A stretch of DNA of 64,000 nt from IMG/VR virus record IMGVR_UViG_3300021255_002129; one strand, 5' to 3'. The DNA is from a virus (Duplodnaviria; Heunggongvirae; Uroviricota; Caudoviricetes). Below the pieces are notes generated by a model. It was not told where the DNA came from, did no database searches, and saw nothing but the letters and a program-made list of their open reading frames with translations. Below are positions 1,420-51,945 of the stretch, piece by piece; position 1 is the first letter of the stretch; every line of letters starts with the position of its first letter. Both the position numbers and the translations under genes were made by a program.

Positions 1420-3759
1420 ATGCAGAATAATGATATTTTAAATGAATTAAGCACAAATTTTATTGAATATGCTGTTGCAGTTAATACAGACCGTGCAATT
1501 CCAGATGCAACAAGTGGTCTTAAACCTGTTCATAGAAGAATTTTATGGGGAGCATATGAAAAAGGTTATACTTTTAGTAAACCTCATGTAAAGTCAGCAA
1601 AAATTGTTGGAGATGTAATGGGTACATATCACCCACATGGAGATTCTTCAATATATGGTGCTCTTGTAAGATTGTCACAACCTTGGGTTATGAGATATCC
1701 TCTTATAGATTGGCACGGTTCAAATGGTAATATTGATGGCGATGGACCAGCTCATATGCGTTATACTGAAGCAAGACTTTCAAAACTTGCAGAAGATGGT
1801 ATGTTATTTGGAATAAAGAAAAGAAATGTAGATTTTATTCCTAACTATTCTGAAGATGCAGAAGAACCAGTTACATTACCTGCTATATTTCCTAATTTAT
1901 TATGTAATCCAAACACTGGTATTGGAGTTGCTATGGCTTGTAACTTTGCTCCACATAATTTAAAAGAAGTGGCTCAAGCTATTCATGATTATGTTGAAGG
2001 TAAAGAGCCTATGTTACCTGGGCCAGATTTTCCAACAGGTGGAATCATTATTAATATGAATGATATTCCTGCAATTATGAATACTGGGCATGGTGGCGTA
2101 AAAGTTAGAGCAAAATATAAAGTAGAAAAACAAAATTTAGTATTTTATGAAATTCCTTATGGAACATCTACTGAAGCATTAATTGCGGAAATAGGTAAAG
2201 TAGCAGAAGAAGAATTAAGTGAAATTACTAATATTAGAAATGAAAGTAATAAAAAAGGATTAAGAATTGTTATAGAGTGTAAAAAAGATGTTAATCCTGA
2301 TGCAATAGCAAATAAATTATTTGCAAAAACTAATTTACAAACAAGTTTTTCATATAATCAAGTTGCTTTAATAAATAAAACTCCAACAGAGGTTAATTTA
2401 AAAGATTGTATTAAAATATACCTAAATCATAATATTGAATGTTTAATAAAAGAGTGCGATTTTGATTTAAAGAAGGCGGAAGCCCGCCTAGAAATAGTAG
2501 AAGGTTTATTAAAAGCATTACAAGATATTGATACTATAATTACATTTATTAAAAAGTCTGCTAGTAGTGCTGCCGCAAAAGATGGATTAGTAAGTGATTT
2601 TGGATTTACTGAACCTCAAGCAAAATCTATCGTAGCTATGAGATTAGGTAGTTTAGCTAAACTTGAGGGTGTTGAACTTAATGATGAAAAAGCTAAATTA
2701 AATGAAACAATAGATGATTTAAATAGAATATTAGGTTCAGAAACTGAACAATTAAATGTTATTCTAGGTAGATTAGATGATTTAGTTAAAAAATATGGAG
2801 ATGCAAGAAGAACTGAACTAGCACAAATCGAAGTTCCAAAAGAAGAAAAAGAAATTGCAGAAGTTATTCCTGAAGATGTTGTTGTTATGCTATCACAAAC
2901 AGGAGACATTAAAAGAATACCTAAAGCTAGTTTTAGAACACAAAGAAAAGGCGGAAAAGGAGTTAAAACTGCAGACGATGCGGTAATGGCTACTATTAGA
3001 ACTAATACTATTGATGCTTTATTATTATTTACAAACAAAGGAAAAATGTATAGAATTATAGTAGATAATATACCTATTGGAACAAACGTATCAAAAGGTT
3101 CTAATGTATCAACATTAATTAATTTAGAAAATGATGAAAAAGTTATTGCTATAACTAATTTAGCAAGAGGAAATGAAAATAAATATGTCGTATTTATTAC
3201 AAAGAATGGTTTATTTAAGAAAACATCAATAGAAGAATATACTAAAACTAAAAGAAGTACAGGTATAGCCGCTATAAATCTTAAAGATGGAGATAGTATT
3301 GCTAATATAGAACTAATGAATGATGAAGATATGATTATAATAACTAAAAAAGGTTATTCAATTCATTTTGAAACTAAAGAGATTGCGGCAATCGGTAGAG
3401 TTACTGCTGGAGTTAAGGCGATTAAATTAGCAGATGATGATGAAGTATTAGTAGGTTTACCTATAAGAGATAAAAAAGAAACTATTGCAGTATTTAGTTC
3501 ATTTGGAAATGCTAAAAAAACTAGTATAGATGAATTCCCATTACAAGCTAGAGCTGGGAAAGGCGTGGTTGCTTATAAAGTTAGTCCAGCTACAGGAGAC
3601 GTAGTAGGAGCTACTATGATAAATAATGAAGATAATATCTTATTAGTAGGAAAAACTTCTATATGCGTTGCCGCAACAGATATACCTCAATTAGGTAGAG
3701 CTGCAACAGGAAATATAATGATTAAAAATAGTCAAATAAATTCAGTAACAAAATTATAG
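1420..3759 (+). CDS. Type II topoisomerase subunit A (GyrA/ParC-like)
   Basis: N-terminal 'AVNTDRAIPDATSGLKPVHRRILW' and 'HMRYTEARLS' (active-site Tyr region) match the GyrA signature. RBS AAAGGAGG lies upstream. No in-frame TGA. Confidence 0.9.
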   Translation: MQNNDILNELSTNFIEYAVAVNTDRAIPDATSGLKPVHRRILWGAYEKGYTFSKPHVKSAKIVGDVMGTYHPHGDSSIYGALVRLSQPWVMRYPLIDWHGSNGNIDGDGPAHMRYTEARLSKLAEDGMLFGIKKRNVDFIPNYSEDAEEPVTLPAIFPNLLCNPNTGIGVAMACNFAPHNLKEVAQAIHDYVEGKEPMLPGPDFPTGGIIINMNDIPAIMNTGHGGVKVRAKYKVEKQNLVFYEIPYGTSTEALIAEIGKVAEEELSEITNIRNESNKKGLRIVIECKKDVNPDAIANKLFAKTNLQTSFSYNQVALINKTPTEVNLKDCIKIYLNHNIECLIKECDFDLKKAEARLEIVEGLLKALQDIDTIITFIKKSASSAAAKDGLVSDFGFTEPQAKSIVAMRLGSLAKLEGVELNDEKAKLNETIDDLNRILGSETEQLNVILGRLDDLVKKYGDARRTELAQIEVPKEEKEIAEVIPEDVVVMLSQTGDIKRIPKASFRTQRKGGKGVKTADDAVMATIRTNTIDALLLFTNKGKMYRIIVDNIPIGTNVSKGSNVSTLINLENDEKVIAITNLARGNENKYVVFITKNGLFKKTSIEEYTKTKRSTGIAAINLKDGDSIANIELMNDEDMIIITKKGYSIHFETKEIAAIGRVTAGVKAIKLADDDEVLVGLPIRDKKETIAVFSSFGNAKKTSIDEFPLQARAGKGVVAYKVSPATGDVVGATMINNEDNILLVGKTSICVAATDIPQLGRAATGNIMIKNSQINSVTKL

Positions 3760-19930: not shown

Positions 19931-22900
19931 ATGGATTGGAGTAAAAGATTTGAAGTACATAGTCATACGCATTATAGTAATTTAAGATTATTAGACTCCA
20001 TTAATCGTCCTAAAGATTTAATTAATCGAGCAATAGAATTAGGATTAGCTGGTATTGCAATTACAGACCATGAAGCATTATGTTCACATCCTGAGATTAA
20101 TTTTTATCAAAAGGAAATAGAAGAAAAAAATCCTGATTTTAAAATTGCTTTAGGAAATGAAATATATTTAACAGATACTCGTGATATGGGACAAAGATAT
20201 TATCACTTTATTTTAATTGCAAAAAATAAAGAAGGTCATAGAGCTTTAAGAGAGTTATCTTCAAGAGCTTGGATGAATAGTTATTGGGATAGAGGTCTTG
20301 AAAGAGTTCCAACTTTAAAAAGTGATTTAGAAGAAATATTATCAAAATATCCAAATAGTTTAATAGGAACAACCGCTTGTTTAGGTGGAGAATTAAGTGT
20401 TAACACTTTAGCATTAATTAACGCAGAAAAGACAGGAGATACAAATGGTGCGGCAACCGCACATAATAATATAGTAAACTTTTTATTATGGTGTAAAGAA
20501 GTATTTGGAGAAGATAATTTTTATATAGAATGTGCACCAGGGGCTAGCCGCGATCAAGTATTAGTAAATAAAAGATTTCCTGCTATTGCAAAAGCATTTG
20601 ATTTAAAAATGGTTATAGGTTCAGATGCACATTATCTTAAAAAAGAAGATAGATATGTTCATAAAGCATATCTTAATAGTAAATTTGGTGAACGTGAAGT
20701 AGATGAGTTTTATGAATTTGCATATCTTCAAGATAATGAAGAAATAAAAGAAAATTTATATGCATCAGAGTTTAGTGATGAATTTATAAATGAAATGTTT
20801 GCAAACAGTTATAACATTTATAATAAGATAGAAAAATTTAGTTTAGCACATAATCAAACTATTCCAAAAGTAGAAGTAGAAGATTATTCAAAAGAAATAA
20901 GAAAAGAATTTGAAGTTGGTTATCCGATATTGGCGGAAATGCTTAACTCAGATGATAAAGTTGAAAGATATTGGGTAAATAAATGTTTAAAAAGATTACA
21001 AAAATTAGATTTATATAATGAAACTTATTTAGATAGACTTGAAGAAGAAGCAGATATAAAAAAGACAATAAGTGAAAAGTTAGGAACTAATATGTTTAGT
21101 TATCCTGTAACTTTGGAACATTATGTTAATTTATTCTGGGAGTGCGGAAGTATGGTAGGTGCAGGTCGTGGTTCAAGTTGTTCAGGATTAAATCACTATC
21201 TTTTAGGAATAACTCAACTTGACCCAATTAAATGGAACTTACCATTCTGGAGATACTTAAATAAAGAACGTGTTGAATTAGGAGATATAGATTTAGATTT
21301 ATGTCCAAGTAAAAGACCAAGAATTTTAAATGAAATTAAAAAAGAAAGAGGTCAAAACTTTAATAAAGACATAGATGAATTAAGTAAAAAGAATTTAGGT
21401 TGTACTTTAATAGCAACTTTTGGAACTGAAGGAACTCGTTCAACAATTTTAACAGCTTGCCGCGGTTATCGTAGTGCAGAATATCCTGATGGTATTGATG
21501 TTGATACAGCACAATATTTAAGTTCATTAATTCCAAGTGAACGTGGTTTTTTATGGTCGTTAGATGATGTTATAAATGGTAATGAAGATAAAGGTAGAAA
21601 GCCAATTAAAATGTTTATTAATGAAGTAAATACATATCCAGGATTGTTAGAAATAATGGAAGGTATTGAAGGTTTAATTAACAAGCGTAGTAGTCATGCA
21701 TCAGGAGTAATATTATTTGATGAAGACCCATATGAATTTGGAACATTTATGAGAACTCCAAAAGGTGAAGTTATAACAGCTTATGATTTACATATGTGTG
21801 AAGCTTGTGGTATGACTAAATATGACTTTTTAGTAACAGAAGTTCAAGATAAATTATGTGAAGCAATAAGATTATTACAAGAGTATAATGAAATAGATAA
21901 TTCTTTGACATTAAGAGAAGTTTATGATAAATATTTTCACCCAAATGTATTGCCTATTGATAATCAAGAGATATGGAAAGCGCTTCAAGAAAATAGTGTA
22001 TTAAATATCTTTCAGTTTGATAGTGAAGTAGGTTCTCAGGCAGCAAAGAAAATTAAACCTAAATCAATGTTGGAGATGGCGGATGCAAATGGTTTAATGA
22101 GACTTATGACTGCAGAAAAGGGACAAGAGTCTCCAATGGAAAAATATATTAAGTTTAAAAATGATATATCATTATGGTATAAAGAAATGAGAGAATATGG
22201 ACTAACTCAAGCAGAACAAAAAACATTAGAGCCATATTTTAAAAGTTCATATGGAGTCCCACCTAGTCAAGAGCAATTAATGAGAATGTTAATGGATGAA
22301 AATATATGCGGATTTACTTTAGCAGAAGCTAACGCCGCACGTAAGATAGTTGGTAAAAAACAAATGAGTAAAATTCCTGAATTAAGAGATAAGGTTTTGA
22401 CACAAGCGAAGTCATCTTGTTTGGGGCATTATGTATGGGCATGCGGAATTGGACCTCAAATGGGTTATTCATTTAGTGTTATTCATGCTCTTGCATATTC
22501 ATTTATAGGTTTTCAAACTATGTTTATAGCAACTAATTGGAATCCGATATATTGGAACACAGCATGTTTAATTGTTAATAGCGGGGGACTTGAAGAAGAA
22601 AGTGACTTTGAAGAAGATGACGATGGATATGTTGTAGAAAAGAAAGAAAAAGCAACTGATTATGGTAAAATTGCAAAGGCTATTGGAGATATAACATCAA
22701 GAGGTATTCAGGTTAGTTTGGTTGATATTAATAAGTCAAGTTATAGTTTTAAGCCAGATGTTGAAAATAATGAAATATTATTTGGTATGAAAGCATTAAG
22801 TAATATAAATGGCCCAACAATAGAACAAATAATAAGTCATAGACCATATGCGGGAATAGCTGATTTTATGTCAAAATGTCCATTAAATAAAAGTGCAATG

Positions 22901-23887
22901 TTTAGTTTAATAAAAGCTGGAGCTTTTGATAAATTAGAAAAAACTTGGGCTGAAGAACTTCACACTACCGCACGTAATGTAACAATGATATATTATATAT
23001 CTAAAGTATGTGAAGCAAAGAAAAGAATAACTTTACAAAACTTTAATGGATTAATTCAACATGATTTAATACCCGCAGAATTAGATTTACAAAAGCAAAC
23101 TTATTTATTCACAAAATATTTAAAAGCAAATAAAAAAGTTGGTAAATATTATGTGTTTGATAATGTTTGTGAAGAATTTTATAATAAGCATTTTGATTTA
23201 GACCAGTTAGAAGTAATTAATGGATTAACTTGTATTTTACAAACTAATTGGGAAAAAATTTATCAAAATGTTATGGATAAAGCTAGAGATTGGGTTAAAG
23301 ATAATCAGGCGGAAATTCTTAATAGATTTAATAATATGTTATTTAAAGAGTGCTGGGATAAATATGCAACAGGAAATATAAGTTCATATGAAATGGAAGC
23401 ATTATGTTTCTATTATCATGAACATGAATTAATAAATGTCAATAATGATAAATATGGTATTGTAGATTTTAATGAATTAGCATCTAATCCTGTTATTGAT
23501 TACTTCTTTAAAAGAAATGGTAGAGATATTCCTATTTATAAAATATATAAAATTGTTGGAACTGTAATTGGAAAAAATGATAATCGTTCATCTATAACAC
23601 TATTAACCCCAACAGGTGTTGTTAATGTTAAGTTTACAAAAGAATATTATGCAATGTTTAATAGACAAATCAGTGAACTTGGTGAAGATGGTATTAAACA
23701 CGTAGTTGAAAAAGGTTGGTTCACAAGAGGAGTTAAATTATTAGTTGCGGGTTTCCGCAGAGATGATACTTTTGTAGGAAAAACATATAAAAATAATGGT
23801 TTTCATCAATTATATAAAATAATTGAAGTATATGATAATGGAGATATTAAATTAACTCATGATAGAGAAGGGTTAGAGACTGAATAA
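19931..23887 (+). CDS. DNA polymerase III alpha subunit (DnaE-type, N-terminal PHP domain)
   Basis: 1318 aa. PHP motif 'FEVHSHTHYS...IAITDHEAL' and polymerase core homology. There is no TGA; every Trp is TGG. Confidence 0.9.
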   Translation: MDWSKRFEVHSHTHYSNLRLLDSINRPKDLINRAIELGLAGIAITDHEALCSHPEINFYQKEIEEKNPDFKIALGNEIYLTDTRDMGQRYYHFILIAKNKEGHRALRELSSRAWMNSYWDRGLERVPTLKSDLEEILSKYPNSLIGTTACLGGELSVNTLALINAEKTGDTNGAATAHNNIVNFLLWCKEVFGEDNFYIECAPGASRDQVLVNKRFPAIAKAFDLKMVIGSDAHYLKKEDRYVHKAYLNSKFGEREVDEFYEFAYLQDNEEIKENLYASEFSDEFINEMFANSYNIYNKIEKFSLAHNQTIPKVEVEDYSKEIRKEFEVGYPILAEMLNSDDKVERYWVNKCLKRLQKLDLYNETYLDRLEEEADIKKTISEKLGTNMFSYPVTLEHYVNLFWECGSMVGAGRGSSCSGLNHYLLGITQLDPIKWNLPFWRYLNKERVELGDIDLDLCPSKRPRILNEIKKERGQNFNKDIDELSKKNLGCTLIATFGTEGTRSTILTACRGYRSAEYPDGIDVDTAQYLSSLIPSERGFLWSLDDVINGNEDKGRKPIKMFINEVNTYPGLLEIMEGIEGLINKRSSHASGVILFDEDPYEFGTFMRTPKGEVITAYDLHMCEACGMTKYDFLVTEVQDKLCEAIRLLQEYNEIDNSLTLREVYDKYFHPNVLPIDNQEIWKALQENSVLNIFQFDSEVGSQAAKKIKPKSMLEMADANGLMRLMTAEKGQESPMEKYIKFKNDISLWYKEMREYGLTQAEQKTLEPYFKSSYGVPPSQEQLMRMLMDENICGFTLAEANAARKIVGKKQMSKIPELRDKVLTQAKSSCLGHYVWACGIGPQMGYSFSVIHALAYSFIGFQTMFIATNWNPIYWNTACLIVNSGGLEEESDFEEDDDGYVVEKKEKATDYGKIAKAIGDITSRGIQVSLVDINKSSYSFKPDVENNEILFGMKALSNINGPTIEQIISHRPYAGIADFMSKCPLNKSAMFSLIKAGAFDKLEKTWAEELHTTARNVTMIYYISKVCEAKKRITLQNFNGLIQHDLIPAELDLQKQTYLFTKYLKANKKVGKYYVFDNVCEEFYNKHFDLDQLEVINGLTCILQTNWEKIYQNVMDKARDWVKDNQAEILNRFNNMLFKECWDKYATGNISSYEMEALCFYYHEHELINVNNDKYGIVDFNELASNPVIDYFFKRNGRDIPIYKIYKIVGTVIGKNDNRSSITLLTPTGVVNVKFTKEYYAMFNRQISELGEDGIKHVVEKGWFTRGVKLLVAGFRRDDTFVGKTYKNNGFHQLYKIIEVYDNGDIKLTHDREGLETE

Positions 23888-23999: not shown

Positions 24000-26249
24000 A
24001 TGAAAGTCATTAAAAGAGACGGTCGTATCGTAGATTTTGATGCGACAAAAATCGAGAGAGCTATTCTCGCAGCATTCCAAGACGTAGATGGTGAAATTAC
24101 TGACTACGCAAAAGAAAAAGCTGAAAATATAGCAAGTTATATTGAAGGGTATTATTTAGATGTAGATGAAACACCTGGAATTGAAGAAATTCAAGATTTA
24201 GTTGAAAAAGGTTTAATGTCAACAAAAAGAAAAGATGTTGCTAAAAATTATATCCTTTATAGAGAAGAAAGAACAAAAATAAGAAATGCAAATAGTAAAT
24301 TGATGCAAAATATTAAAGAGAAGATTGAAGCCTCAGATGTACAAAATCAAAATGCTAATGTTGATGAACATTCATTTGGTGGTCGTATGGGAGAAGCTAG
24401 ATCTGAATTAATGAAAGATTATGCTCTTAATTATATTGTATCTCCTATGGCAAGAGAAAATCATTTAAATAATGAAATATATATTCATGATTTAGATGCG
24501 TATGCAGTTGGTATGCATAACTGTTTAACTGTTCCTTTTGATAAATTATTAGCAGAAGGTTTTAATACTAGACAAACAGATGTAAGACCAGCCCGTTCAA
24601 TTAATACTGCATTTCAATTAGTTGCGGTATTATTCCAATTACAATCTTTACAACAATTTGGCGGAGTTAGTGCGAGTCATTTAGATTGGACTATGGTTCC
24701 ATATGTAAGATTATCATTTAAAAAACATTTTAGAGATGGTATGAAATATTTATGTGATATTGAATTAGATGAAATACCTGATGATACATCCATTGACAAT
24801 GAAATGTATTTAGCATCTCCAAAAGTATATAAGTATGCTATGGATATGACTGAAAAAGAGTTAATGCAAGCTGTCCAAGGAATGTATCATAATTTAAATA
24901 CATTACAAAGTAGAAGCGGAAACCAATTACCATTTACTTCAATTAATTATGGAACTTGTACTTTACCTGAAGGTAGAATGGTTACAAAAGCATTATTAGA
25001 AGGTTCTATTGAAGGTGTTGGTAAAGTTAGAAAAACTCCAATATTCCCATGTGGTATCTTTCAATGTATGAAAGGTGTTAACCGCAAACCAGGAGATCCT
25101 AACTACGATTTATTTAAATTAGCACTTAAATCAACAGCTCAAAGATTGTATCCTAATTATGTTAATGTAGATTGGTCAGTAAATGCTGGATATGATATTA
25201 ACGACCCTAAAACTTATGTTTCAACAATGGGATGCAGAACATACAATGGTGCAGATATCAACGCAGAGCCTGGAACTAATCCTCAAACAAAGGATGGCCG
25301 CGGAAATATTTGTCCTGTTACTATCGTTATGCCGACCTTGGCTATGAAAGCAAAAGAAAAAGCTATTGCAGAAGGTTTTGGAACCACAGACAAAGATTGC
25401 TTAGACCCAGTTAGTGCTTTTATGGAATTATTAGATAAAAAAATTCATGAAGCAAAAGATATGTTATTAGAGAGGTATCATTGGATTATAAATCAATCAC
25501 CTGAAAGTGCTAAGTTTATGTATGAAAATAACATTATGTTAGGTTATGATGGAAAAACAATAGAAAGTGCTATGAAACATGGAACTCTTGTTATTGGTCA
25601 AATAGGTTTGGCGGAAACGCTTCAAATTTTAATTGGTAAAGACCATACAACAAAGGAAGGTATGGAACTTGCTAAAAGAATTGAACAATTATTTAAAGAT
25701 AGATGTGCAGAATTTAAAAAAGATTTGCACTTAAATATAGGGGTATATTATACACCTGCTGAAAATATGTGTTATACTTCAATGAAAAAATTTAAAAAGG
25801 CTTATGGAATTATTCCTAATGTAAGTGATAGAGATTATTTTACAAATAGTATTCATGTTCCAGTATGGAAAGAGATGAGTCCATTTGATAAAATAGACAT
25901 AGAGAGTCAGTTAACTGGTTATAGTAATGCTGGATGTATTACTTATGTAGAATTAGAGGGCGGAGTTAAAAATAATTTAGATGCTCTTGAAGAAATAATT
26001 AATTATGCTATGGATAAAGATATTCCATATTTTGCAATTAATGTTCCAAATGATACTTGTTTAGATTGCGGTTATACTGATGAATTTAATGATAAATGTC
26101 CAATGTGCGGAAGTGAACATATACAACAACTTAGACGTGTTACAGGATATTTAACAGGAGATTACAAAACTGCATTTAATAAAGGAAAACAACAAGAGAC
26201 TGAACAAAGATATAAACATTCTAAAAAATTGGAGAATTGGAATGATTAG
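24000..26249 (+). CDS. nrdD: anaerobic ribonucleoside-triphosphate reductase (class III)
   Basis: N-terminal ATP-cone, C-terminal Zn ribbon 'CLDCGY...CPMCG' and glycyl-radical region 'RRVTGYL'. No TGA. Confidence 0.92.
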   Translation: MKVIKRDGRIVDFDATKIERAILAAFQDVDGEITDYAKEKAENIASYIEGYYLDVDETPGIEEIQDLVEKGLMSTKRKDVAKNYILYREERTKIRNANSKLMQNIKEKIEASDVQNQNANVDEHSFGGRMGEARSELMKDYALNYIVSPMARENHLNNEIYIHDLDAYAVGMHNCLTVPFDKLLAEGFNTRQTDVRPARSINTAFQLVAVLFQLQSLQQFGGVSASHLDWTMVPYVRLSFKKHFRDGMKYLCDIELDEIPDDTSIDNEMYLASPKVYKYAMDMTEKELMQAVQGMYHNLNTLQSRSGNQLPFTSINYGTCTLPEGRMVTKALLEGSIEGVGKVRKTPIFPCGIFQCMKGVNRKPGDPNYDLFKLALKSTAQRLYPNYVNVDWSVNAGYDINDPKTYVSTMGCRTYNGADINAEPGTNPQTKDGRGNICPVTIVMPTLAMKAKEKAIAEGFGTTDKDCLDPVSAFMELLDKKIHEAKDMLLERYHWIINQSPESAKFMYENNIMLGYDGKTIESAMKHGTLVIGQIGLAETLQILIGKDHTTKEGMELAKRIEQLFKDRCAEFKKDLHLNIGVYYTPAENMCYTSMKKFKKAYGIIPNVSDRDYFTNSIHVPVWKEMSPFDKIDIESQLTGYSNAGCITYVELEGGVKNNLDALEEIINYAMDKDIPYFAINVPNDTCLDCGYTDEFNDKCPMCGSEHIQQLRRVTGYLTGDYKTAFNKGKQQETEQRYKHSKKLENWND

Positions 26250-26748
26250 GGTTGCAGGTATTAATGGTAATGATTTCGTCAATGGAGAAGGGGTAAGCGT
26301 TAGTTTATTCCTTCAAGGTTGCCATTTTCATTGTCAGGGATGCCATAATCCAGAAACTTGAGATCCTAACGGCGGAAATATTTGAGATTGAAATGATTTA
26401 ATAAATCATATTATTGAATTAATTTCCGCAAATGGAATACAAAGAAATTTAAGTATTTTAGGTGGAGAACCTTTAGATACTTATGATAAAAGAGATTTCA
26501 TAAAATTACTATTAAAAGTAGTAAAAAATAAATTCCCAAATATTAAAATCTGTTTGTGGACAGGATATACTTTATCTCAATTAAGAGAAGATACTAATTT
26601 AATTGGGGTTGGGGAAATATTAACAACTATAGATTATTTGATTGAAGGCCCTTTTAAACTTAAAGAACGCGACATAACATTAAAATGGCGCGGCAGTCGC
26701 AATCAAAATATTATAAATATGAAAACAGGAGAGATAGAAAATGATTAA
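26242..26748 (+). CDS. nrdG: anaerobic RNR activating protein (radical SAM); three in-frame TGA = Trp
   Basis: 'CHFHCQGCHNPETW' carries the conserved NrdG Trp, which is encoded by TGA. 'NIWDWND' has two more. The ATG overlaps the nrdD end. Confidence 0.85.
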
Positions 26749-26902
26749 CTTTTTAAAAATATTTTTTCCAGCATTAATGGTTACAGGAGCTCTTGGTAGT
26801 TTAATCTTAAATATAATTACTAACAAAACTGAATGACCTGTTTCGTTACAATGGTTTGGAGCAGCATTATTATATACAGCATTATTATTTAGAAATAAAT
26901 AG
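26741..26902 (+). CDS. small two-TM membrane protein (53 aa), one TGA
   Basis: 'MINFLKIFFPALMVTGALGSLILNII...W(TGA)PVSLQWFGAALLY'. It overlaps the nrdG stop. Confidence 0.35.
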
Positions 26903-26907
26903 CAAAG

Positions 26908-26950
26908 GAGGTTAAGTAAGAAATAAAAAATTACTTAACCTCTTTTTTTG
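26908..26950 (+). terminator. rho-independent terminator
   Basis: Perfect 12-bp stem GAGGTTAAGTAA/TTACTTAACCTC followed by TTTTTTTG. Confidence 0.7.
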
Positions 26951-26975
26951 TTATGTTGATAGGAGAGTGTAACAA

Positions 26976-27395
26976 GTGCGAAAAATTACAAAAGAAATGA
27001 TTAAATTATATAATATTAAAAAATTAGGTTATGATTTTATGGGATATACTTTTAGAAATATTAATGAATTAAGTTTTCATCATTTAATAGTTCCTTATAG
27101 AAATTGTAAAAGAGAAGGTCTTGGAGAAGGATATCTATTATGAAATGGTGCAATTCTTAAACAAGAAACTTCCCATGAATATTTACATACTATTGAATTA
27201 TATGATAGAGAATTATTTTTACGAATAACAAAATATATGATACAGGAAAATGAAAATATGAAAATTGATATAGATAATTTAAAAAAAATACGAGAATTAC
27301 TTTTATATTTTGAAGCTGAACATTTAAACGATACAAACAAAAAAGGTAAAAAATTAATTAAAAGAAATTATCTAACAGACCGCATACATTTATAA
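26976..27395 (+). CDS. hypothetical protein (~139 aa), one in-frame TGA at 27141
   Basis: RBS AGGAGAG at 26961, then GTG at 26976 (or ATG at 26997). The frame was verified codon by codon to TAA at 27393. Confidence 0.4.
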
Positions 27396-32823: not shown

Positions 32824-33768
32824 ATGAATGATAAAATAGATATAGTAGTTACATACTTAAATGATCAAGACCAGCAGTGACAAGAAGAATTTAATAAATA
32901 TAAACAATATGAAGTTTCTAAAGGATGAATAAATCCCAATAGTATTCAAGCCTTCGGAGAAGAAAGAATAAGAAATTGAGATTTTACTCAGTATTGGTTT
33001 AGAGGAGTAGAAAAATGCTGCCCATGAGTTAATAAAATATTTTTTATAATTCAAAATGAACATCATATTCCAGAATGATTAAATACTACTAATCCAAAAA
33101 TTCGTATAGTATATCATAATGAGTTTATACCAAAAGAATTATTACCTACATTTAATCCTATGACTATTGGATTATATATTAATCAAATTAAAGATTTAAG
33201 CGATAATTATATTATGTGTGACGATGATTATTTCTTTTTAAATCCGATAGATGAAACTAAGTTTTTTATAAATAATAAACCTCAGCATGAAGATAACCAA
33301 GCTCCATATGGATACTTTTACGATGGTGATGAATTTTTACATATAATGAATAATTGCTTTGATTTTGAAAAAAAATATGACGATGGTAAAACAAAATATC
33401 ATTTTTATCATTTACCGACAGCAAGAAATAAAACATTAGAACAAAAAATTTTAAAAGATAATTATAATGATATATTAAATTCTCAAAGAGTTAGTAGATT
33501 TAGATACCCAACTAATTTAGATGCAAATATTTATTCTAATATTTTAAAATTAACTCACAATGCAGATATCCTACCAAAAGGTACTATCTATGGAAATAGT
33601 GCTTATGTTGCATTACAACCAAATATTGATTTTTATCAATATAAAGATAAAGAAATGGTTTGTTTCAATGACGTAGATTTAGTAACAGGGCATTTTGAAG
33701 AAATACAAAAATCTCTTATTGAATTTTTAAAATATAAATTCCCAAATAAGAGTTCGTTTGAGGTGTAA
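32824..33768 (+). CDS. Stealth-family (CR1-CR4) sugar-phosphate transferase; at least six in-frame TGA
   Basis: 'IDIVVTYLNDQDQQW' (CR1-like) and '[37 protein letters not shown]' (CR2-like). In frame with track ORF 33160..33768. Confidence 0.6.
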
Positions 33769-33770
33769 AA

Positions 33771-34565
33771 ATGAAAGAAAAATTTTTTAGTGTTATAATT
33801 CCTAATTACAATAATTCAACATATTTAGAAAAATGTTTAAAATCAGTATTAAATCAAACTTTTACTAATTATGAATTAATTGTAATAGATGATGTTTCAA
33901 CAGATAATAGTGTTGAAATAATTAAAAATATTTTTAATGAATACAAAGATAAAGATACAAAATTAATTGAATTAAAAGAAAAAGCTTGAAATGGCGGTAG
34001 CCGCAATATTGGTATTAAACAAGCTACCGGAAAATATTTTCTATTTTTAGATAGCGACGATTGATTTATGAATAATACTATATTCCAACAAGTCTATGAT
34101 TTTATCATAAGTAAAAATAACCCAGAATTAATTAGACTTTCTTTTGATATATTAACAAAAGATAATTGGCAATTTACAGTATGACTAGATGAAAAAGATT
34201 TAGATGAATTAGCAAATACTTGTTATGTAGCTTCTTGAATAAAATGCATTAGAGCAGATAAAATGATACCCTTTGAAGAAGATACATTAATGGAAGATGC
34301 AATTCAACATATTAAACAAATTGATGTCTTAACTAATTTTGAAGTTTTAAAAATATCCGCCGTATGTCATAATACTCAAAATCCAAATCAATGTAGCTCA
34401 CAAGAAAATAAAAAATTACAAGATGCTAAATGAGAAAAATCAATGCATAAATTTTATCAAAGTTTATTAGATTTAAAATGTAATCACGACTATTGTGAAA
34501 AAAGAAGATTATGAAAAATAGAAGAAGCAAAAGGCCATATTGAAAGAGGAGAGGCTTGACAATAA
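33771..34565 (+). CDS. family 2 glycosyltransferase (GT-A); about seven in-frame TGA
   Basis: 'FSVIIPNYNNSTYLEKCLKSVLNQT...IVIDDVSTD' followed by 'FLDSDD'. Confidence 0.7.
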
Positions 34566-35140
34566 TGAAATTATCAATAATAACACCATATTATAATTGT
34601 CTAAACTATCTTCAAAACTTAGTAAAGGTTTTAGAACCACAATTAACCAATGAAGTCGAATGAATTATTATTGATGATGGCTGCCATGAACAAGAACTTG
34701 ATAAAATTAAAGCAACTATAATACATTTATTAAATAATAGCGGATGTGCAGGAGTCCCTCGCAATTATGGATTAGATATTGCAAAAGGAGATTATATAAC
34801 TTTCGTTGATGCAGATGATTTAGTTTCTAAAGATTTTGTATCTAAAATAATAAATAAAATAAATTTAACAACATTTGATTATTGTTTAATGAGTTGAGAA
34901 AAAATAGATAAATCATTTTATGTAGACGTAACAACTGGAAGACCAGATTGAAACTGTAGTGTGTGAGGTATTATATATAACAAAAATAATTTAAAAAATG
35001 TGCGTTTTAATAATAAAAAATTTGCAGAAGATTATGATTTTAATCAAATAGCATTAAAAGGAAAAGAAGAGAGAATACTTGATTACTTATATTTTTATAA
35101 TAGCAATGAAAATGGACTATCTGCAAATTGGGAAGGATAG
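34565..35140 (+). CDS. family 2 glycosyltransferase (GT-A); four in-frame TGA
   Basis: 'LSIITPYYNC...IIIDDGC...FVDADD'. The ATG overlaps the preceding TAA. Confidence 0.7.
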
Positions 35141-35143
35141 AGT

Positions 35144-36256
35144 ATGGAAAATCAAGAACAATTTTATACAAATATATTCTATTTTGATAGAATAAATAAA
35201 ATAGGCGGAGTTGAGACTTTCTTTTACGAAATAGCAAAAAAATATTGTAATAATGATATTACTGTATTTTATTCTTTTGGAGATTTAAAACAAATCCAAA
35301 GATTAAAAAAGCTTATAAGAGTAGTTAAATACACAGGACAAAAAATAAAATGTAAAAAAGCATTTTTCAATTACAGTTTAAAGCCTATCGACAATATACA
35401 GGCGGAAAAATATTATGAAATTATCCATGCTAATTATAAAGATTTAGGTATTTATCCTAATGTTAGTCCAAAAATAGATGAATATATTGGAGTTAGTCAA
35501 TCTGTATGCAATGCATTTACAGAATTAACTGGTTTACCTTGCACGCTATGTTATAACCCAATTACAATAGATAAGCCTAAAAGAGTATTATATCTTATTT
35601 CTGCAACTAGATTAACAAGAGAAAAAGGAAAAGATAGAATATTAAAACTTGCAAAAGCATTAGATGATGCGAAAATCCCCTATGTTTGAACTATATTTAC
35701 AAATGATACTAAAGAGATAAAACATCCCAGAATAATCTTTATGGAGCCACAATTAAATATTAGAGATTATATCGCTAAATCAGATTATACTGTTCAATTA
35801 AGTGATACAGAAGCTTATTGTTACACGATGATTGAAAGTTTATTATTAAACGTCCCTATTATTGTAACTCCATGAAAATGTTTAAAAGAGTTAAATATAA
35901 CAGAAGAATATGGATTTATATTACCTTTTGATATGGAAGATATTCCTGTAAAAGATATTTATAATAAAGAATTTAATTTTAAATATAAATTAATTCCAGA
36001 TACTTGAAATAAAATAATTGAACCAAGCAAATCTACTTATCAAGAAGAATTAAATGCCAAATATATTGTAGAAGCATTAAAAACATATCAAGATAGAAAT
36101 TTCAAAGATGTTCAATTAGGAATTATTCCTAGTCCTGGTTCTAGATGGACGGTTACAAAAGATAGATTGGATTTATTGTTAGGAGAAAATGAAAATCAAG
36201 AGGCTTATGTAAAATTAATTGACATAGTTAAAGATGATAAAGGAGATGATATATAA
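35144..36256 (+). CDS. GT-B fold (GT1/GT4-like) glycosyltransferase; three in-frame TGA
   Basis: 'GGVETFFYEIAKK', 'ISATRLTREKGKDRIL' and an E-X7-E-like 'ESLLLNVPIIVTP' motif. Confidence 0.65.
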
Positions 36257-36762
36257 TGAATATCTTATCATTAGACCTTTCAACCAAATCAAGCGGCTGA
36301 GCTTATTTTGAAGATGGAGAACTTAAAGATCATGGATGCATTACATCTGCATCTACTGATTTAATTAAAAGAATATATATTATGAGAGATGGGATTGCGG
36401 AAATCCTTGATAAATATGCTGTAACCAAGATTGTTGTAGAAGAAGTTAGACCTGAAGGTGGTTACGGAGTAGGCAATACAAAAACTCATCGAGCTTTAAT
36501 GTGACTTCAGGCAGCAACCGCATTTTTAATTCATGATAATTACCCTTCTATTGAAATAGAATATATATATCCAAGTTCATGACGTGCAGCTTTAGGTATT
36601 AAAAATGGTCGCGGAATAAAGAGGACATCATTAAAAGAGCAAGATATACAATATGTTCAAGATAAATATAATATAAATGTAAATGATGATGAAGCAGATG
36701 CAATATGCATAGGTTTATCACAATATAAAGAAAAAGATGATAATGAAATAAATTGAGCATAA
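36256..36762 (+). CDS. RuvC-like Holliday-junction resolvase; three in-frame TGA
   Basis: 'LSLDLSTKSSGWAYF' (RuvC motif I-like) and 'DDEADAICIG' (catalytic Asp pair). It is the last gene before the convergent terminator. Confidence 0.7.
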
Positions 36763-49943: not shown

Positions 49944-49976
49944 AAAATAAAAAAGAGGAGTATTTAGTTACTCCTC
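49944..49976 (-). terminator. rho-independent terminator after the holin gene
   Basis: GAGGAGTA-TTTAGT-TACTCCTC with a flanking A/T tract. Confidence 0.6.
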
Positions 49977-50393
49977 ATCATCTTTAACTTCCCAAGTAAT
50001 GACTTCAGTGTCTGAACTAATATTTGCTAAATCTACAACTCCTTGAATTGCTTTCTTTCCTTGTGCCACAATAGTTGCAGTGACTACACCTAATACTGCA
50101 ACACTTGATAATGTATTAAGTAATTCGCTTGATAATAATATTACTCCAAATGCACTTGTAATCATTTTATTAATAAATGGTAACATAGTAAATGCAACAG
50201 CAACAAACACTGAGCATACATAAAACGCTAATATTTTTGTAATACCTTTAATCATTTTCTTTCCATTAAAAGTTTCTTTTCCTGACCAAATATTAATTAA
50301 TGTTCCAGTTACAATATTAACAATAGCAAGAATAGCTAATGCAATACCTAACCATCCCATTATTTGTAAAGTTTTTAAAATTGCTTCTACCAT
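49968..50393 (-). CDS. holin (multi-TM)
   Basis: 141 aa with three or four predicted TM helices and a charged C-terminus, located next to the endolysin. Confidence 0.6.
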   Translation of the reverse strand: MVEAILKTLQIMGWLGIALAILAIVNIVTGTLINIWSGKETFNGKKMIKGITKILAFYVCSVFVAVAFTMLPFINKMITSAFGVILLSSELLNTLSSVAVLGVVTATIVAQGKKAIQGVVDLANISSDTEVITWEVKDDEE

Positions 50394-50767
50394 AATATCA
50401 TGCGGCGGTCGTCGGTCTTAGAACTTTTAGTCTTGCTCTTACGCATGCCTGATCGGCTCCCGCGCCTCCTTTCCTTATTGTTTCCGCACTCTCCACCTTT
50501 AGTGCAATTATAACCAAAAAGTGGAATATTACTTTTGTAATAACCTATTAAATATTTTTCTAACCTAACAGCTTGCTCTTGTGTCAATCCACTAGATATT
50601 ACAATGTGTTTAATGTTTTTTCAGCCATATTTTTTAATAGGTTTATAGACTAACTGGCCTTTATAGCCTCGCCCATTTTTCCATCTAGACTCAGGTTTTT
50701 GGCCAGTTAATCCAATATATCGTTTCCCATTAGGGAAAATTAATTCATATACACAATAATTATGCAT
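50387..50767 (-). CDS. GIY-YIG homing-endonuclease-like protein inserted between endolysin and holin; at least one in-frame TGA
   Basis: 'VYELIFPNGKRYIGLTGQKPESRWKNGRGY' is a GIY-YIG motif and '...LEKYLIGYYKS...FGYNCTKGG' is I-TevI-like. The ATG overlaps the endolysin TAA, and the TAG stop overlaps the holin start. The C-terminal basic tail is encoded by an anomalously GC-rich patch (~50400-50480). Confidence 0.55.
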
Positions 50768-51945
50768 TATAGTTTTTGTAGACTTGATGCTGGGTAGAAT
50801 CCTGTAGTTCCAGATCCATTTCCAACTTGATATGGATAAGGTCTTCCATCCCAAATTCTTAAAATTTGTCTAGTCCATCCAATACCATATGCAGTATTAC
50901 TTCCACCATAAGAACTTCCATTACCAGTTCCTATAATCTTAACTTTATCTCCTACTTGTAATCCAGTTGGTTGTGGTGTAGGTTGTGGAGCAGGTTCATC
51001 ATATTTTTTAATTGAACTTTGATCCATCCATCCTAAGTCTCCTGTTGTATTATATGGATGCGCGCTTCCTGGGTTTTTTCTTGTAATATAAGTAACTTTA
51101 TTACTTACACTTCCTGCAGGACTAGCTGCATTAGAATTAACATATAGAGGTCCATTGATTATTACATGGTCTCCAATATTAAATGCATCACTTGGACCTG
51201 GAGTAGGTGTAGGGGCAGGACTTCCGCCATCTATTAATTTTTGAACGTCATCTGGTAAATATATAAAACATCTAAAGTAATAATTACTTGAACATCCCCA
51301 TCTACCATTATTATTTGTTCTAATTTGGTTCCAGAATATTGTGCTTGAGCCCCATCCAGATTCAGATGTATAAACTTGATTATTACTATCTACTCTTTCA
51401 ACGATTGCTACATGACCAGCGCCTGAGTTTCCCCAGCACATAATTGCTCCACGTTTTGGGGTTGAACCAGTTTTAAGCCCCGCTGTCTCCGCTCTTTCTT
51501 TAAAATTAATAGCATTGCAATTTAAAGTTTTATAAGTACATCCGCTTGTATCTCTTGCAATATTTATAATTTCATTAAATCTACCACTTGCATAACCTAC
51601 GCAGTTTGCTAATGCATTTGCTGGTGCATATAATGGATTACCTTTGATACAAGTATTCCATCCACCAGAACCTGTAACTATAAAGTTTTTGTTATTAGCA
51701 GGTCTGCTAATTCTCATTATAAAACCCGCAGCACCTATACCTTCAGGTTCATCTGCGTTAAGGTTTTCAATTTCATAATGCTCATCCGCATCATTTAATT
51801 CTTCAGGTGTGTCTGTGTTAAATAAATATTGAACATTTTCGTCATCAATATCATCTCTTAAAAAAGCTTTAGCAACCATAGTTTGCACTTCTGTAGGTGC
51901 CATTTCCACTCTTTTAATTCTTTCTTCACTTGATAATTGTGCCAT
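50767..51945 (-). CDS. endolysin: CHAP-domain peptidoglycan hydrolase with two C-terminal SH3b-like cell-wall-binding domains
   Basis: CHAP catalytic Cys 'ANCVGYASGRF' and His 'GAGHVAIVERVD'. A Pro/Thr linker 'PAPTPTPGP' precedes two SH3b-like repeats ('GDHVIINGPLYV...', 'LQVGDKVKIIGTGNG...'). Confidence 0.8.
   Translation of the reverse strand: MAQLSSEERIKRVEMAPTEVQTMVAKAFLRDDIDDENVQYLFNTDTPEELNDADEHYEIENLNADEPEGIGAAGFIMRISRPANNKNFIVTGSGGWNTCIKGNPLYAPANALANCVGYASGRFNEIINIARDTSGCTYKTLNCNAINFKERAETAGLKTGSTPKRGAIMCWGNSGAGHVAIVERVDSNNQVYTSESGWGSSTIFWNQIRTNNNGRWGCSSNYYFRCFIYLPDDVQKLIDGGSPAPTPTPGPSDAFNIGDHVIINGPLYVNSNAASPAGSVSNKVTYITRKNPGSAHPYNTTGDLGWMDQSSIKKYDEPAPQPTPQPTGLQVGDKVKIIGTGNGSSYGGSNTAYGIGWTRQILRIWDGRPYPYQVGNGSGTTGFYPASSLQKL

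What the first reader, a model, noticed from the sequence alone, without database searches (positions are those of the whole stretch)
26242..26902. TGA-dense nrdG and a small membrane ORF translationally coupled downstream of TGA-free nrdD
nrdD (749 aa) has no TGA, whereas nrdG (168 aa) has three, including the conserved Trp of the NrdG motif. The overlapping 53-aa membrane ORF has one more. Within a single transcript, the activase would be truncated unless TGA is decoded. This is a compact test locus for the recoding hypothesis.
Basis: partly seen in the sequence, partly recalled or inferred. Interest (0 to 1): 0.6.

Follow-up and report, generated by a model that had tools for sequence, protein, structure and literature searches.

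The report
TGA-as-tryptophan nrdG in rumen phage
The three in-frame TGA "stops" in this phage's ribonucleotide-reductase activase gene are real and are read as tryptophan. This is an ordinary case of the stop-codon recoding already described for large gut and rumen phages, and the contrast with the TGA-free neighbouring gene is not statistically meaningful.

Summary
nrdD (24000-26249) has 0 TGA and 5 TGG. nrdG (26242-26748) has TGA at codons 40, 48 and 50. The 53-aa two-helix ORF (26741-26902) has one TGA. Both junctions are 8-nt ATGATTAR overlaps, and a strong terminator hairpin follows.

TGA means Trp. Position 40 is Trp in 88% of 131 distant NrdG homologues and is never Gly. In relatives, window TGAs align to TGA or TGG in 69 of 77 cases.

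The window is part of a ~117-143 kb phage family from rumen metagenomes that fits the TGA-recoded "Agate" phages of Borges et al. About 38% of genes carry TGA, and TGA makes up 31% of Trp codons.

The nrdD/nrdG contrast is not significant (Fisher p=0.17) and is not conserved. Some relatives have TGA in nrdD, and others have an all-TGG nrdG. The TGA count in nrdG follows each lineage's overall TGA usage.

A contig ~94% identical to the window, like the rest of the family, encodes a tRNA-Trp-like tRNA with a UCA anticodon outside the window. This tRNA carries an extra covarying hairpin whose loop copies the Trp anticodon loop (UCCAAA). I found no description of it; it is the most interesting by-product of the work.

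The parts
24000..26249 (+). nrdD, class III anaerobic ribonucleotide reductase, 749 aa, 0 TGA / 5 TGG, stop TAG
   Evidence: PF13597 E=4.5e-150, ATP-cone, Gly_radical. The best cultured-phage match is Thomasclavelia phage TR-TP1/2 at 68.6%.
26231..26234 (+). GGAG ribosome-binding site for nrdG, 7 nt before the ATG, inside the nrdD 3' end
   Evidence: read from the sequence
26242..26249 (+). 8-nt overlap ATGATTAG: the nrdG start lies within the last codons and stop of nrdD
26242..26748 (+). nrdG, radical-SAM activase, 168 aa with TGA=Trp; CX3CX2C at C27/C31/C34
26359..26361 (+). in-frame TGA, codon 40 = conserved Trp of the C-x-N-x3-W motif
   Evidence: W in 115 of 131 distant homologues; TGG in relatives L008-10, L013, L014 and L017
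26383..26385 (+). in-frame TGA, codon 48 (aromatic position)
   Evidence: F/Y/W in 87 of 131 homologues; TGG in L008-10 and L013-15
26389..26391 (+). in-frame TGA, codon 50 (clade-specific insertion)
   Evidence: gap in 107 of 131 distant homologues; TGG in L008-10, Cys in L011, Glu in L013-15
26727..26731 (+). AGGAG ribosome-binding site for the small ORF, 9 nt before the ATG
   Evidence: read from the sequence
26741..26902 (+). Conserved 53-aa ORF with two predicted hydrophobic helices. It overlaps nrdG by 8 nt (ATGATTAA). TGA at codon 32 (26834-26836), TGG at codon 38.
   Evidence: conserved in 9 relatives, with TGA/TGG interchange at both Trp codons; no Pfam, PHROG or GenBank-phage match; absent in lineage L001-L004
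26907..26949 (+). intrinsic-terminator-like hairpin (GGAGGUUAAGUAA...UUACUUAACCUC) followed by U7
   Evidence: -22.1 kcal/mol, z=-6.46, 0 of 200 shuffles fold as well

Best explanation
This is the nrdD-nrdG-small-ORF operon end of a large (~130 kb) phage from rumen metagenomes. The phage has an SPbeta-type DNA polymerase and reads TGA as tryptophan.

Shown:
- nrdG is a normal class III RNR activase whose first three Trp codons happen to be TGA.
- TGA is synonymous with TGG in this phage family.
- Recoding is partial and uneven across genes.

Inferred:
- TGA is decoded by a phage-encoded tRNA-Trp-like tRNA with anticodon UCA. This tRNA sits in a tRNA array outside the window and is present in a ~94%-identical contig and throughout the family.
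- The tRNA is charged by the TrpRS of a standard-code Firmicute host.
- The host is most likely standard-code, as proposed for 'Agate' phages.

The TGA load of nrdG reflects how far TGG-to-TGA drift has gone in this lineage, under AT pressure and once a suppressor exists. It is not a gene-specific device. nrdD is TGA-free by chance or by slightly stronger purifying selection on a long, abundant enzyme.
For: TGA = Trp:
- codon 40 is W in 88% of distant homologues, with 0 Gly.
- TGA and TGG interchange at codons 40, 48, 50 and 106 among relatives.
- window TGAs align to TGA (32) or TGG (37) in 69 of 77 cases, and never to Gly.

Partial, heterogeneous recoding:
- TGA 72 and TGG 161 (31%), although Lys/Glu/Gln codons are ~88% A-ending. 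26 of 68 genes carry TGA. Permutation heterogeneity p<5e-5. The replication and nucleotide-metabolism module is 19% TGA, the glycosyltransferase cluster 86%, the tail/lysis module 33%.
- under the TAA/TAG-only ORF definition used (every end is TAA or TAG by construction), the genes pack tightly.

No gene-specific role for the nrdG TGAs:
- Fisher p=0.17.
- nrdD has TGA in 4 relatives.
- the nrdG TGA count (0-4) tracks the local lineage TGA fraction (0.09-0.57).

Suppressor tRNA:
- tRNA(UCA) next to tRNA-Trp(CCA) in contig IMGVR_UViG_3300037400_002591, ~94% nt identity to the window.
- the same tRNA is in the contigs of relatives L008, L013, L014, L017, L023 and L030.
- A1-U72, G2-C71 to G5-C68 and G73, which is the Trp identity set of B. 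subtilis.
- loci with tRNA(UCA) gain 0.15 coding density under code 4, against 0.02 for loci with tRNA(CCA).

Firmicute link:
- closest cultured-phage homologues come from Thomasclavelia, Enterocloster, and Bacillus SPbeta/Enterococcus phages.

Fit to Agate phages:
- ~127 kb, cattle, close relatives with little or no TGA, and TGA-rich homing endonucleases inserted in early genes.
Against: - No tRNA lies in the window itself. The suppressor is inferred from a ~94%-identical contig.
- The host was not identified. A code-4 Mycoplasmatota host is not excluded.
- The lysis genes in the window do not show the TGA enrichment predicted by the 'late-gene gating' model (putative endolysin 0 TGA / 8 TGG, holin-like 0/3). 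This phage therefore fits only the general recoding picture, not every detail.
- Membership in the Agate clade could not be tested by sequence.
Confidence: 0.75

Rival explanations
1. The host itself uses genetic code 4 (a Mycoplasmatota lineage). TGA is then simply a native Trp codon, decoded by host tRNA-Trp(UCA), and no phage-driven recoding is involved.
For: GC is low at ~28%. TGA=Trp as in Mycoplasma. A DUF285 protein lies next to the locus. Mycoplasmatota descend from Firmicutes, so the Firmicute-phage affinities do not exclude them.
Against: - TGA is only 31% of Trp codons, although A-ending synonymous codons are ~88%.
- Only 38% of genes contain TGA. Borges et al. report ~90% for phages matched to the recoded code (code 25) of their hosts, and 26-71% for phages of standard-code hosts.
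- The long core genes are TGA-free (polIII 0/19).
- Close relatives are almost TGA-free in this region.
- The family carries its own UCA tRNA plus a CCA tRNA-Trp.
- In 185,579 species-representative genomes, the pattern for this tRNA matched only two stretches, both in contigs of metagenome bins and neither from Mycoplasmatota.
Confidence: 0.15
2. The triple TGA in nrdG is a programmed translational gate. NrdD is made from the start, but its activase, and hence anaerobic dNTP synthesis, is withheld or throttled until the suppressor tRNA accumulates.
For: - Three TGAs fall within 11 codons, immediately after the Fe-S motif, in a gene translationally coupled to a TGA-free partner.
- The same three positions are TGA in several lineages (window, L001-6, L012).
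- Borges et al. propose such gating for late genes.
Against: - Six relatives have an all-TGG nrdG.
- Shared TGAs are explained by shared ancestry.
- The nrdG TGA count follows lineage-wide TGA usage.
- The contrast with nrdD is not significant, and nrdD carries TGA in four relatives.
- The chance that the three TGAs are the three N-terminal Trp codons is 0.1.
- In relatives the suppressor tRNA lies close to the divergent start of the other gene arm, not next to late genes.
Confidence: 0.08
3. TGA encodes something other than Trp (Gly as in code 25, selenocysteine, or Ser because the suppressor has a long variable arm), or nrdG is a pseudogene or assembly artefact.
For: ARAGORN labels the UCA tRNA 'SeC'. 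It has a long extra arm and G73, features that SerRS can use.
Against: - 0 Gly of 131 at codon 40.
- Among the 61 TGA codons of relatives aligned to the window, only 1 aligns to Ser and 56 to TGA/TGG.
- The tRNA has 7/5 acceptor/T stems, a 4-bp D stem and Trp-type acceptor pairs, not a tRNA-Sec shape.
- The same TGAs recur in many independent assemblies; cluster P0001 has 224 member sequences.
Confidence: 0.02

Closest known systems
TGA-recoded 'Agate' phages (Borges et al., bioRxiv 10.1101/2021.08.26.457843; later in Nature Microbiology by my recollection)
   Same: - ~127 kb genomes from cattle and other animal guts.
- TGA read as Trp in only part of the genes.
- Close relatives with little or no TGA.
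- Some members carry TGA suppressor tRNAs.
- Two gene arms with opposite GC skew.
- TGA-rich homing endonucleases inserted in early genes.
   Different: - Clade membership was not tested, because no Agate sequences were available here.
- In this window the lysis genes are not TGA-enriched.
- Nucleotide-metabolism genes (nrdG, a glycosyltransferase cluster, RuvC) are among the most recoded.
- The paper does not discuss nrdG or the extra hairpin of the tRNA.
crAss-like and Lak phages with TAG-to-Gln or TGA-to-Trp reassignment (Ivanova et al. 2014, from memory; Yutin et al., PMC7886860, seen only in a search list; Peters et al., PMC9523058, abstract read)
   Same: A phage genome uses a stop codon as a sense codon, with phage suppressor tRNAs and block-wise recoding.
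   Different: The phage lineages and hosts differ (Bacteroidetes). The experimental validation so far concerns TAG-to-Gln (abstract).
Native code 4 of Mycoplasma and Spiroplasma and their phages
   Same: TGA = Trp, decoded by a tRNA-Trp(UCA).
   Different: In those organisms TGA is the dominant Trp codon and is found in nearly all genes (general knowledge). Here it is 31% of Trp codons, in 38% of genes. The UCA tRNA is phage-borne and has an extra arm.
Phage and bacterial nrdD-nrdG operons (for example T4 nrdD/nrdG, E. coli nrdDG)
   Same: A glycyl-radical reductase is followed by its radical-SAM activase. The CX3CX2C...W motif is present. The two genes are adjacent and probably co-translated.
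   Different: This one has in-frame TGAs in nrdG and an additional conserved 53-aa membrane ORF coupled downstream. That ORF has no match in the family libraries used.
SPbeta-like phages of Bacillus and large Enterococcus phages
   Same: YorL-type polIII-alpha polymerase (39% identity over 99% of the length) and a ~130 kb genome.
   Different: The relationship is only distant. Those phages use the standard code.

Membership tests
NrdG (class III RNR activating enzyme, radical SAM) | N-terminal CX3CX2C 4Fe-4S/SAM cluster motif | tested here: met
   C27, C31 and C34 are conserved in 130-131 of 131 homologues. PF13353 E=1e-37 and PF04055 E=1.9e-8.
NrdG (class III RNR activating enzyme, radical SAM) | Encoded next to an NrdD that has a glycyl-radical domain | tested here: met
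   NrdD with NRDD + Gly_radical lies immediately upstream, with an 8-nt overlap.
NrdG (class III RNR activating enzyme, radical SAM) | Generates the glycyl radical on NrdD | not testable with these tools
   This needs biochemistry.
Stop-codon-recoded phage, TGA to Trp (code 4 type) | In-frame TGA at positions that are Trp in homologues | tested here: met
Stop-codon-recoded phage, TGA to Trp (code 4 type) | Coding density rises when TGA is sense, and TGA is not needed as a stop | tested here: met
   Density is 0.86 against 0.75 around the locus. Long ORFs carry up to 8 TGAs. With TGA read as sense, the ORFs (which end in TAA or TAG by construction) tile the window tightly.
Stop-codon-recoded phage, TGA to Trp (code 4 type) | Phage-encoded UGA-reading tRNA | tested here: inconclusive
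   None is in the window. One is present in a ~94%-identical contig and in six other family members.
Stop-codon-recoded phage, TGA to Trp (code 4 type) | Host uses the standard code | not testable with these tools
   Only indirect evidence: partial recoding, Firmicute-phage affinities, and one related tRNA on a contig binned with a Lachnospiraceae MAG.
Agate clade (Borges et al.) | Placement in the large-terminase phylogeny with >=95% bootstrap support | not tested
   No terminase is in the window, and no Agate reference sequences are available in the tools.
Agate clade (Borges et al.) | ~127 kb genome, cattle/animal gut origin, TGA recoding with near-standard-code close relatives, TGA-rich intron endonuclease in an early gene | tested here: met
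   Relatives are 117-143 kb. One sample is labelled as from a rumen study. TGA gradient of 0.09-0.57. The HNH ORF in the nrdD insertion has TGA 5 / TGG 1, and the GIY-YIG ORF in the gene-1 insertion has TGA 6 / TGG 0.
Phage of a native code-4 host | TGA is the predominant Trp codon and is present in nearly all genes | tested here: not met
   31% of Trp codons and 38% of genes.
Code 25 (TGA = Gly) | TGA aligns with Gly in homologues | tested here: not met
   0 Gly at codon 40 in 131 homologues, and 0 Gly among 77 aligned TGAs.

The most novel reading that the evidence does not exclude
The TGAs of nrdG, and of the whole phage, are decoded by an unusual five-armed tRNA. It is a tRNA-Trp body with anticodon UCA. 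Its variable region carries a covarying 5-bp hairpin whose 7-nt loop (N-U-C-C-A-A-A) copies the anticodon loop of tRNA-Trp(CCA).

The reading proposed is that this hairpin acts as a decoy anticodon. It would restore recognition by the TrpRS of a standard-code host, which normally needs C34-C35-A36. A UGA reader could then be charged with Trp without a phage synthetase.

Among phage tRNAs sharing the same D arm, 20 of 22 UCA tRNAs have the hairpin and 0 of 41 CCA tRNAs do. I found no description of it in the paper library.
Probability: 0.3. Interest if true: 0.8.

Novelty: new member of a known kind. Interest (0 to 1): 0.3.

Why it matters
For the locus itself, little changes. It is one more clear, well-behaved example that TGA is Trp in a family of large rumen phages. 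It is also a convenient small construct for testing suppression: a full-length 19-kDa NrdG against a 39-aa fragment.

Its modest value is as a counter-example to a strict rule that early genes use the standard code and late genes the recoded one. Here a nucleotide-metabolism gene in a replication-side operon is recoded, while the endolysin is not.

The larger potential value lies outside the window. If the extra CCA-loop hairpin of the family's UCA tRNA really supplies Trp identity, it would explain how a phage can reassign UGA in a standard-code cell using only one small RNA gene. It would also offer a portable design for opal-suppressor tRNAs.

Tried and rejected
- tRNA scan of the window: nothing found.
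- GenBank phages: no close relative exists. The best NrdD match (Thomasclavelia phage TR-TP2, 68.6%) is a differently organised phage whose annotated genes carry no sign of recoding.
- Small ORF: no match in Pfam, PHROGs or GenBank phages.
- Consensus terminator scan: it missed the AT-rich terminator, which folding then revealed.
- Intergenic region upstream of nrdD: no significant structure.
- Rfam search of the 1-kb insertion in a relative's nrdD: no group I intron match. 'Intron' therefore remains an inference from the inserted HNH ORF.
- Single-sequence folding of the five-arm tRNA: ambiguous for one of three sequences. The alignment-based fold and the pair counts settled it.
- Genome-collection scan for the tRNA: only two hits, both in metagenome bins, so no firm host.
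- Literature searches for an anticodon-mimicking variable arm: nothing found.
- Considered and rejected: Gly, Sec or Ser decoding; pseudogene or assembly error; a complete NrdG in another frame; gene-specific TGA gating of nrdG.
Full report
**1. The observation**

- nrdD occupies 24000-26249 (749 aa; NRDD, ATP-cone and glycyl-radical domains). It has five TGG and no TGA.
- nrdG starts at 26242 inside the last codons of nrdD (ATGATTAG) and runs to 26748. Its in-frame TGAs are at 26359, 26383 and 26389 (codons 40, 48, 50). TGG is at codons 106 and 149.
- With table 11 the frame is cut into 39-aa and 64-aa pieces, and no other frame encodes an NrdG.
- With TGA=W, the Pfam Fer4_12 model matches from end to end across the TGAs (E=1e-37).
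- A 53-aa ORF with two hydrophobic helices starts at 26741 inside the end of nrdG (ATGATTAA). It has TGA at codon 32.
- Both downstream genes have their own GGAG or AGGAG 7-9 nt before the ATG.
- A strong hairpin plus U-run (about 26907-26949; z=-6.5) ends the unit.

**2. What TGA means**

In 131 distant NrdG homologues (cluster representatives from a 50%-identity library; 36-55% identical to the query P0001):
- codon 40 is Trp in 115, and His or Gln in most of the rest, never Gly;
- codon 48 is Phe, Tyr or Trp in 87;
- codon 50 falls in an insertion that most homologues lack.

Within the phage's own family, DNA from independent metagenome assemblies shows TGA and TGG interchanging at codons 40, 48, 50 and 106. 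The same happens at both Trp codons of the small ORF.

Over all + strand genes shared with 13 relatives, window TGAs align to TGA (32) or TGG (37) in 69 of 77 cases. Relatives' TGAs align to the window's TGA or TGG in 56 of 61 cases. TGA is therefore a Trp codon. Gly, Ser and selenocysteine are excluded for practical purposes.

**3. What the window is**

- The window is ~28% GC.
- + strand genes up to ~36.8 kb: topoisomerase/gyrase-like, ligase, DnaB, primase, RecJ, helicase, YorL-type polIII alpha, NrdDG, deformylase, dUTPase, ThyX, flotillin, glycosyltransferases and RuvC. These assignments rest plus motif reading of the translations.
- - strand genes after that: tail, baseplate, holin-like, endolysin-like and tape-measure genes.
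- NrdG and gene 1 have hundreds of relatives in metagenomes, with contigs of 117-143 kb. One sample label points to a rumen study.
- The closest cultured-phage homologues all come from Firmicute phages: Thomasclavelia for NrdD (68.6%), Enterocloster for NrdG (~45-48%), and Bacillus SPbeta and Enterococcus phages for the polymerase (39%).

**4. How TGA is distributed**

- In 68 ORFs called with TGA as sense, there are 72 TGA and 161 TGG (31% TGA). Lys/Glu/Gln codons are ~88% A-ending, so TGA is strongly under-used for this base composition.
- Only 26 of 68 genes contain TGA.
- Usage is heterogeneous (permutation p<5e-5): 19% TGA in the replication and nucleotide module, 86% in the glycosyltransferase/RuvC cluster, and 33% in the tail/lysis module. 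polIII has 0/19.

Against this background nrdG (3/5) and nrdD (0/5) are each unremarkable (p=0.18 and 0.16). They do not differ significantly from each other (Fisher p=0.17).

The contrast is also not conserved:
- nrdD carries one or two TGAs in L005, L011, L015 and L017;
- nrdG is all-TGG in L008-10, L013, L014 and L017;
- around the locus, relatives span a TGA share from 0.09 to 0.57, and the nrdG count follows that lineage value.

The simplest reading is drift from TGG to TGA under AT pressure once UGA can be read. Different lineages have gone different distances.

**5. How TGA is probably decoded**

The window has no tRNA. Walking upstream in a contig ~94% identical to the window (IMGVR_UViG_3300037400_002591) reaches a tRNA array with a tmRNA. 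The array holds a 96-nt tRNA with anticodon UCA, immediately followed by a canonical tRNA-Trp(CCA).

The same tRNA is present in the contigs of relatives L008, L013, L014, L017, L023 and L030, including lineages with very little TGA.

Its acceptor stem (A1-U72, G2-C71, G3-C70, G4-C69, G5-C68) and G73 are the Trp identity elements listed for Bacillus subtilis in PMC9976931. Its D arm is identical to that of 41 ordinary phage tRNA-Trp(CCA) genes.

Loci with the UCA tRNA gain 0.15 in coding density under code 4, against 0.02 for loci with the CCA tRNA.

This matches the published picture for recoded gut phages. There, partial recoding (26-71% of genes) is taken as the signature of standard-code hosts. 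A suppressor was detectable in 35% of code-4 phages.

The host here remains unproven. A code-4 host gets about 15%.

**6. Comparison with what is known**

The family fits the 'Agate' phages of Borges et al. on these points:
- ~127 kb genomes from cattle;
- TGA recoded, with near-standard-code close relatives;
- two arms of opposite GC skew;
- TGA-rich homing endonucleases inserted in early genes. In the 94% relative, nrdD is interrupted by a 1-kb insertion encoding an HNH endonuclease (TGA 5 / TGG 1). Gene 1 is interrupted by an insertion encoding a GIY-YIG endonuclease (TGA 6 / TGG 0).

Clade membership by terminase phylogeny could not be tested.

This window departs from the published emphasis in one respect. 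The endolysin-like (0/8) and one holin-like gene (0/3) are TGA-free. Meanwhile nrdG, RuvC and the glycosyltransferases are recoded. 'Late-gene gating' is therefore not a good description of this genome segment.

A gating role for the nrdG TGAs specifically gets under 10%.

**7. By-product: a five-arm suppressor tRNA**

The UCA tRNA has a second hairpin in the variable region: a 5-bp stem and a 7-nt loop, N-U-C-C-A-A/U-A. That is the sequence of the tRNA-Trp anticodon loop.

- Among IMG/VR tRNAs sharing the D-arm pattern, 20 of 22 UCA tRNAs have the hairpin and 0 of 41 CCA tRNAs do.
- The only two hits in 185,579 species-representative genomes lie in contigs of metagenome bins, and both have the hairpin.
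- In 16 distinct sequences, four of the five stem pairs show compensatory changes and 97.5% of cells pair, while U, C, C and A of the loop are invariant.
- RNAalifold independently predicts the same five-arm fold.
- Rfam's tRNA model places the UCA arm as the anticodon arm and the hairpin as a variable-region insertion.

Bacterial TrpRS uses the CCA anticodon as an identity element. A plausible function is therefore an anticodon decoy that keeps a UGA reader chargeable with Trp. This is inference only.

I found no description of it in the searched literature. That does not prove novelty.

**8. Verdict**

The phenomenon is already known, and the specific nrdD/nrdG contrast carries no demonstrable meaning. 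Interest in the locus is low to moderate. The tRNA seen in passing deserves a separate look.

Noticed in passing
L101:20275-20370 (contig IMGVR_UViG_3300037400_002591, ~17 kb upstream of the window-gene-1 homologue; outside the window). Also L103:17246-17340 and loci L104-L166.: A 92-95-nt tRNA-Trp-like tRNA (96 nt with its encoded CCA in L101) with anticodon UCA. It has an extra covarying hairpin in the variable region whose loop (N-U-C-C-A-A-A) copies the tRNA-Trp anticodon loop. The hairpin is present in 20 of 22 UCA tRNAs and in 0 of 41 CCA tRNAs with the same D arm. It may act as a TrpRS decoy anticodon.
   Followed up: partly
L023:781-1189, L065:1345-1752, L101:15686-16108: Relatives of this phage encode a tmRNA (tag peptides ending ...SLFSFNRVSFA or ...SLFAFNCVAFA) inside the tRNA array. 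That is notable for a phage that reads through a stop codon.
   Followed up: no
window 25757/25758 (nrdD) and window ~1110 (gene 1); L006:2509-3516, L028:10999-12020, L012:~1946-3039: The window's nrdD and gene 1 are uninterrupted. Close relatives carry ~1-kb insertions at these points, encoding HNH or GIY-YIG homing endonucleases. Two of these ORFs are very TGA-rich (5/1 and 6/0). No Rfam group I intron match was found in the nrdD insertion.
   Followed up: partly
window 32824-36762: The glycosyltransferase cluster and the RuvC-like resolvase use TGA for 19 of 22 Trp codons (86%). This is far above the rest of the window and might mark a different origin or expression class. In genes 33771-34565 and 36256-36762 a TGA is the penultimate codon, as if a former TGA stop is now read through to a nearby TAA.
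   Followed up: no
window 49968-51945 (- strand): The endolysin-like gene (0 TGA / 8 TGG) and the adjacent holin-like gene (0/3) are TGA-free. This runs against the published idea that recoding preferentially gates lysis genes.
   Followed up: partly
window 26762-26982 versus L001:1213-1298: The 53-aa membrane ORF and its terminator are replaced by ~86 nt in one close lineage (L001-L004). The ORF is therefore conserved across most of the family but dispensable.
   Followed up: partly
window 19931-23887: The DNA polymerase is a YorL/SPbeta-type polIII alpha (39% identity over 99% of its length to Bacillus SPbeta-like and Enterococcus phages). This points to a distant SPbeta-like ancestry for this family of phages from rumen metagenomes.
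   Followed up: partly
L024:343-433: One relative carries a 91-nt class II tRNA with anticodon ACU (called Ser) next to tRNA-Trp(CCA). That is the position where other relatives have the UCA tRNA.
   Followed up: no
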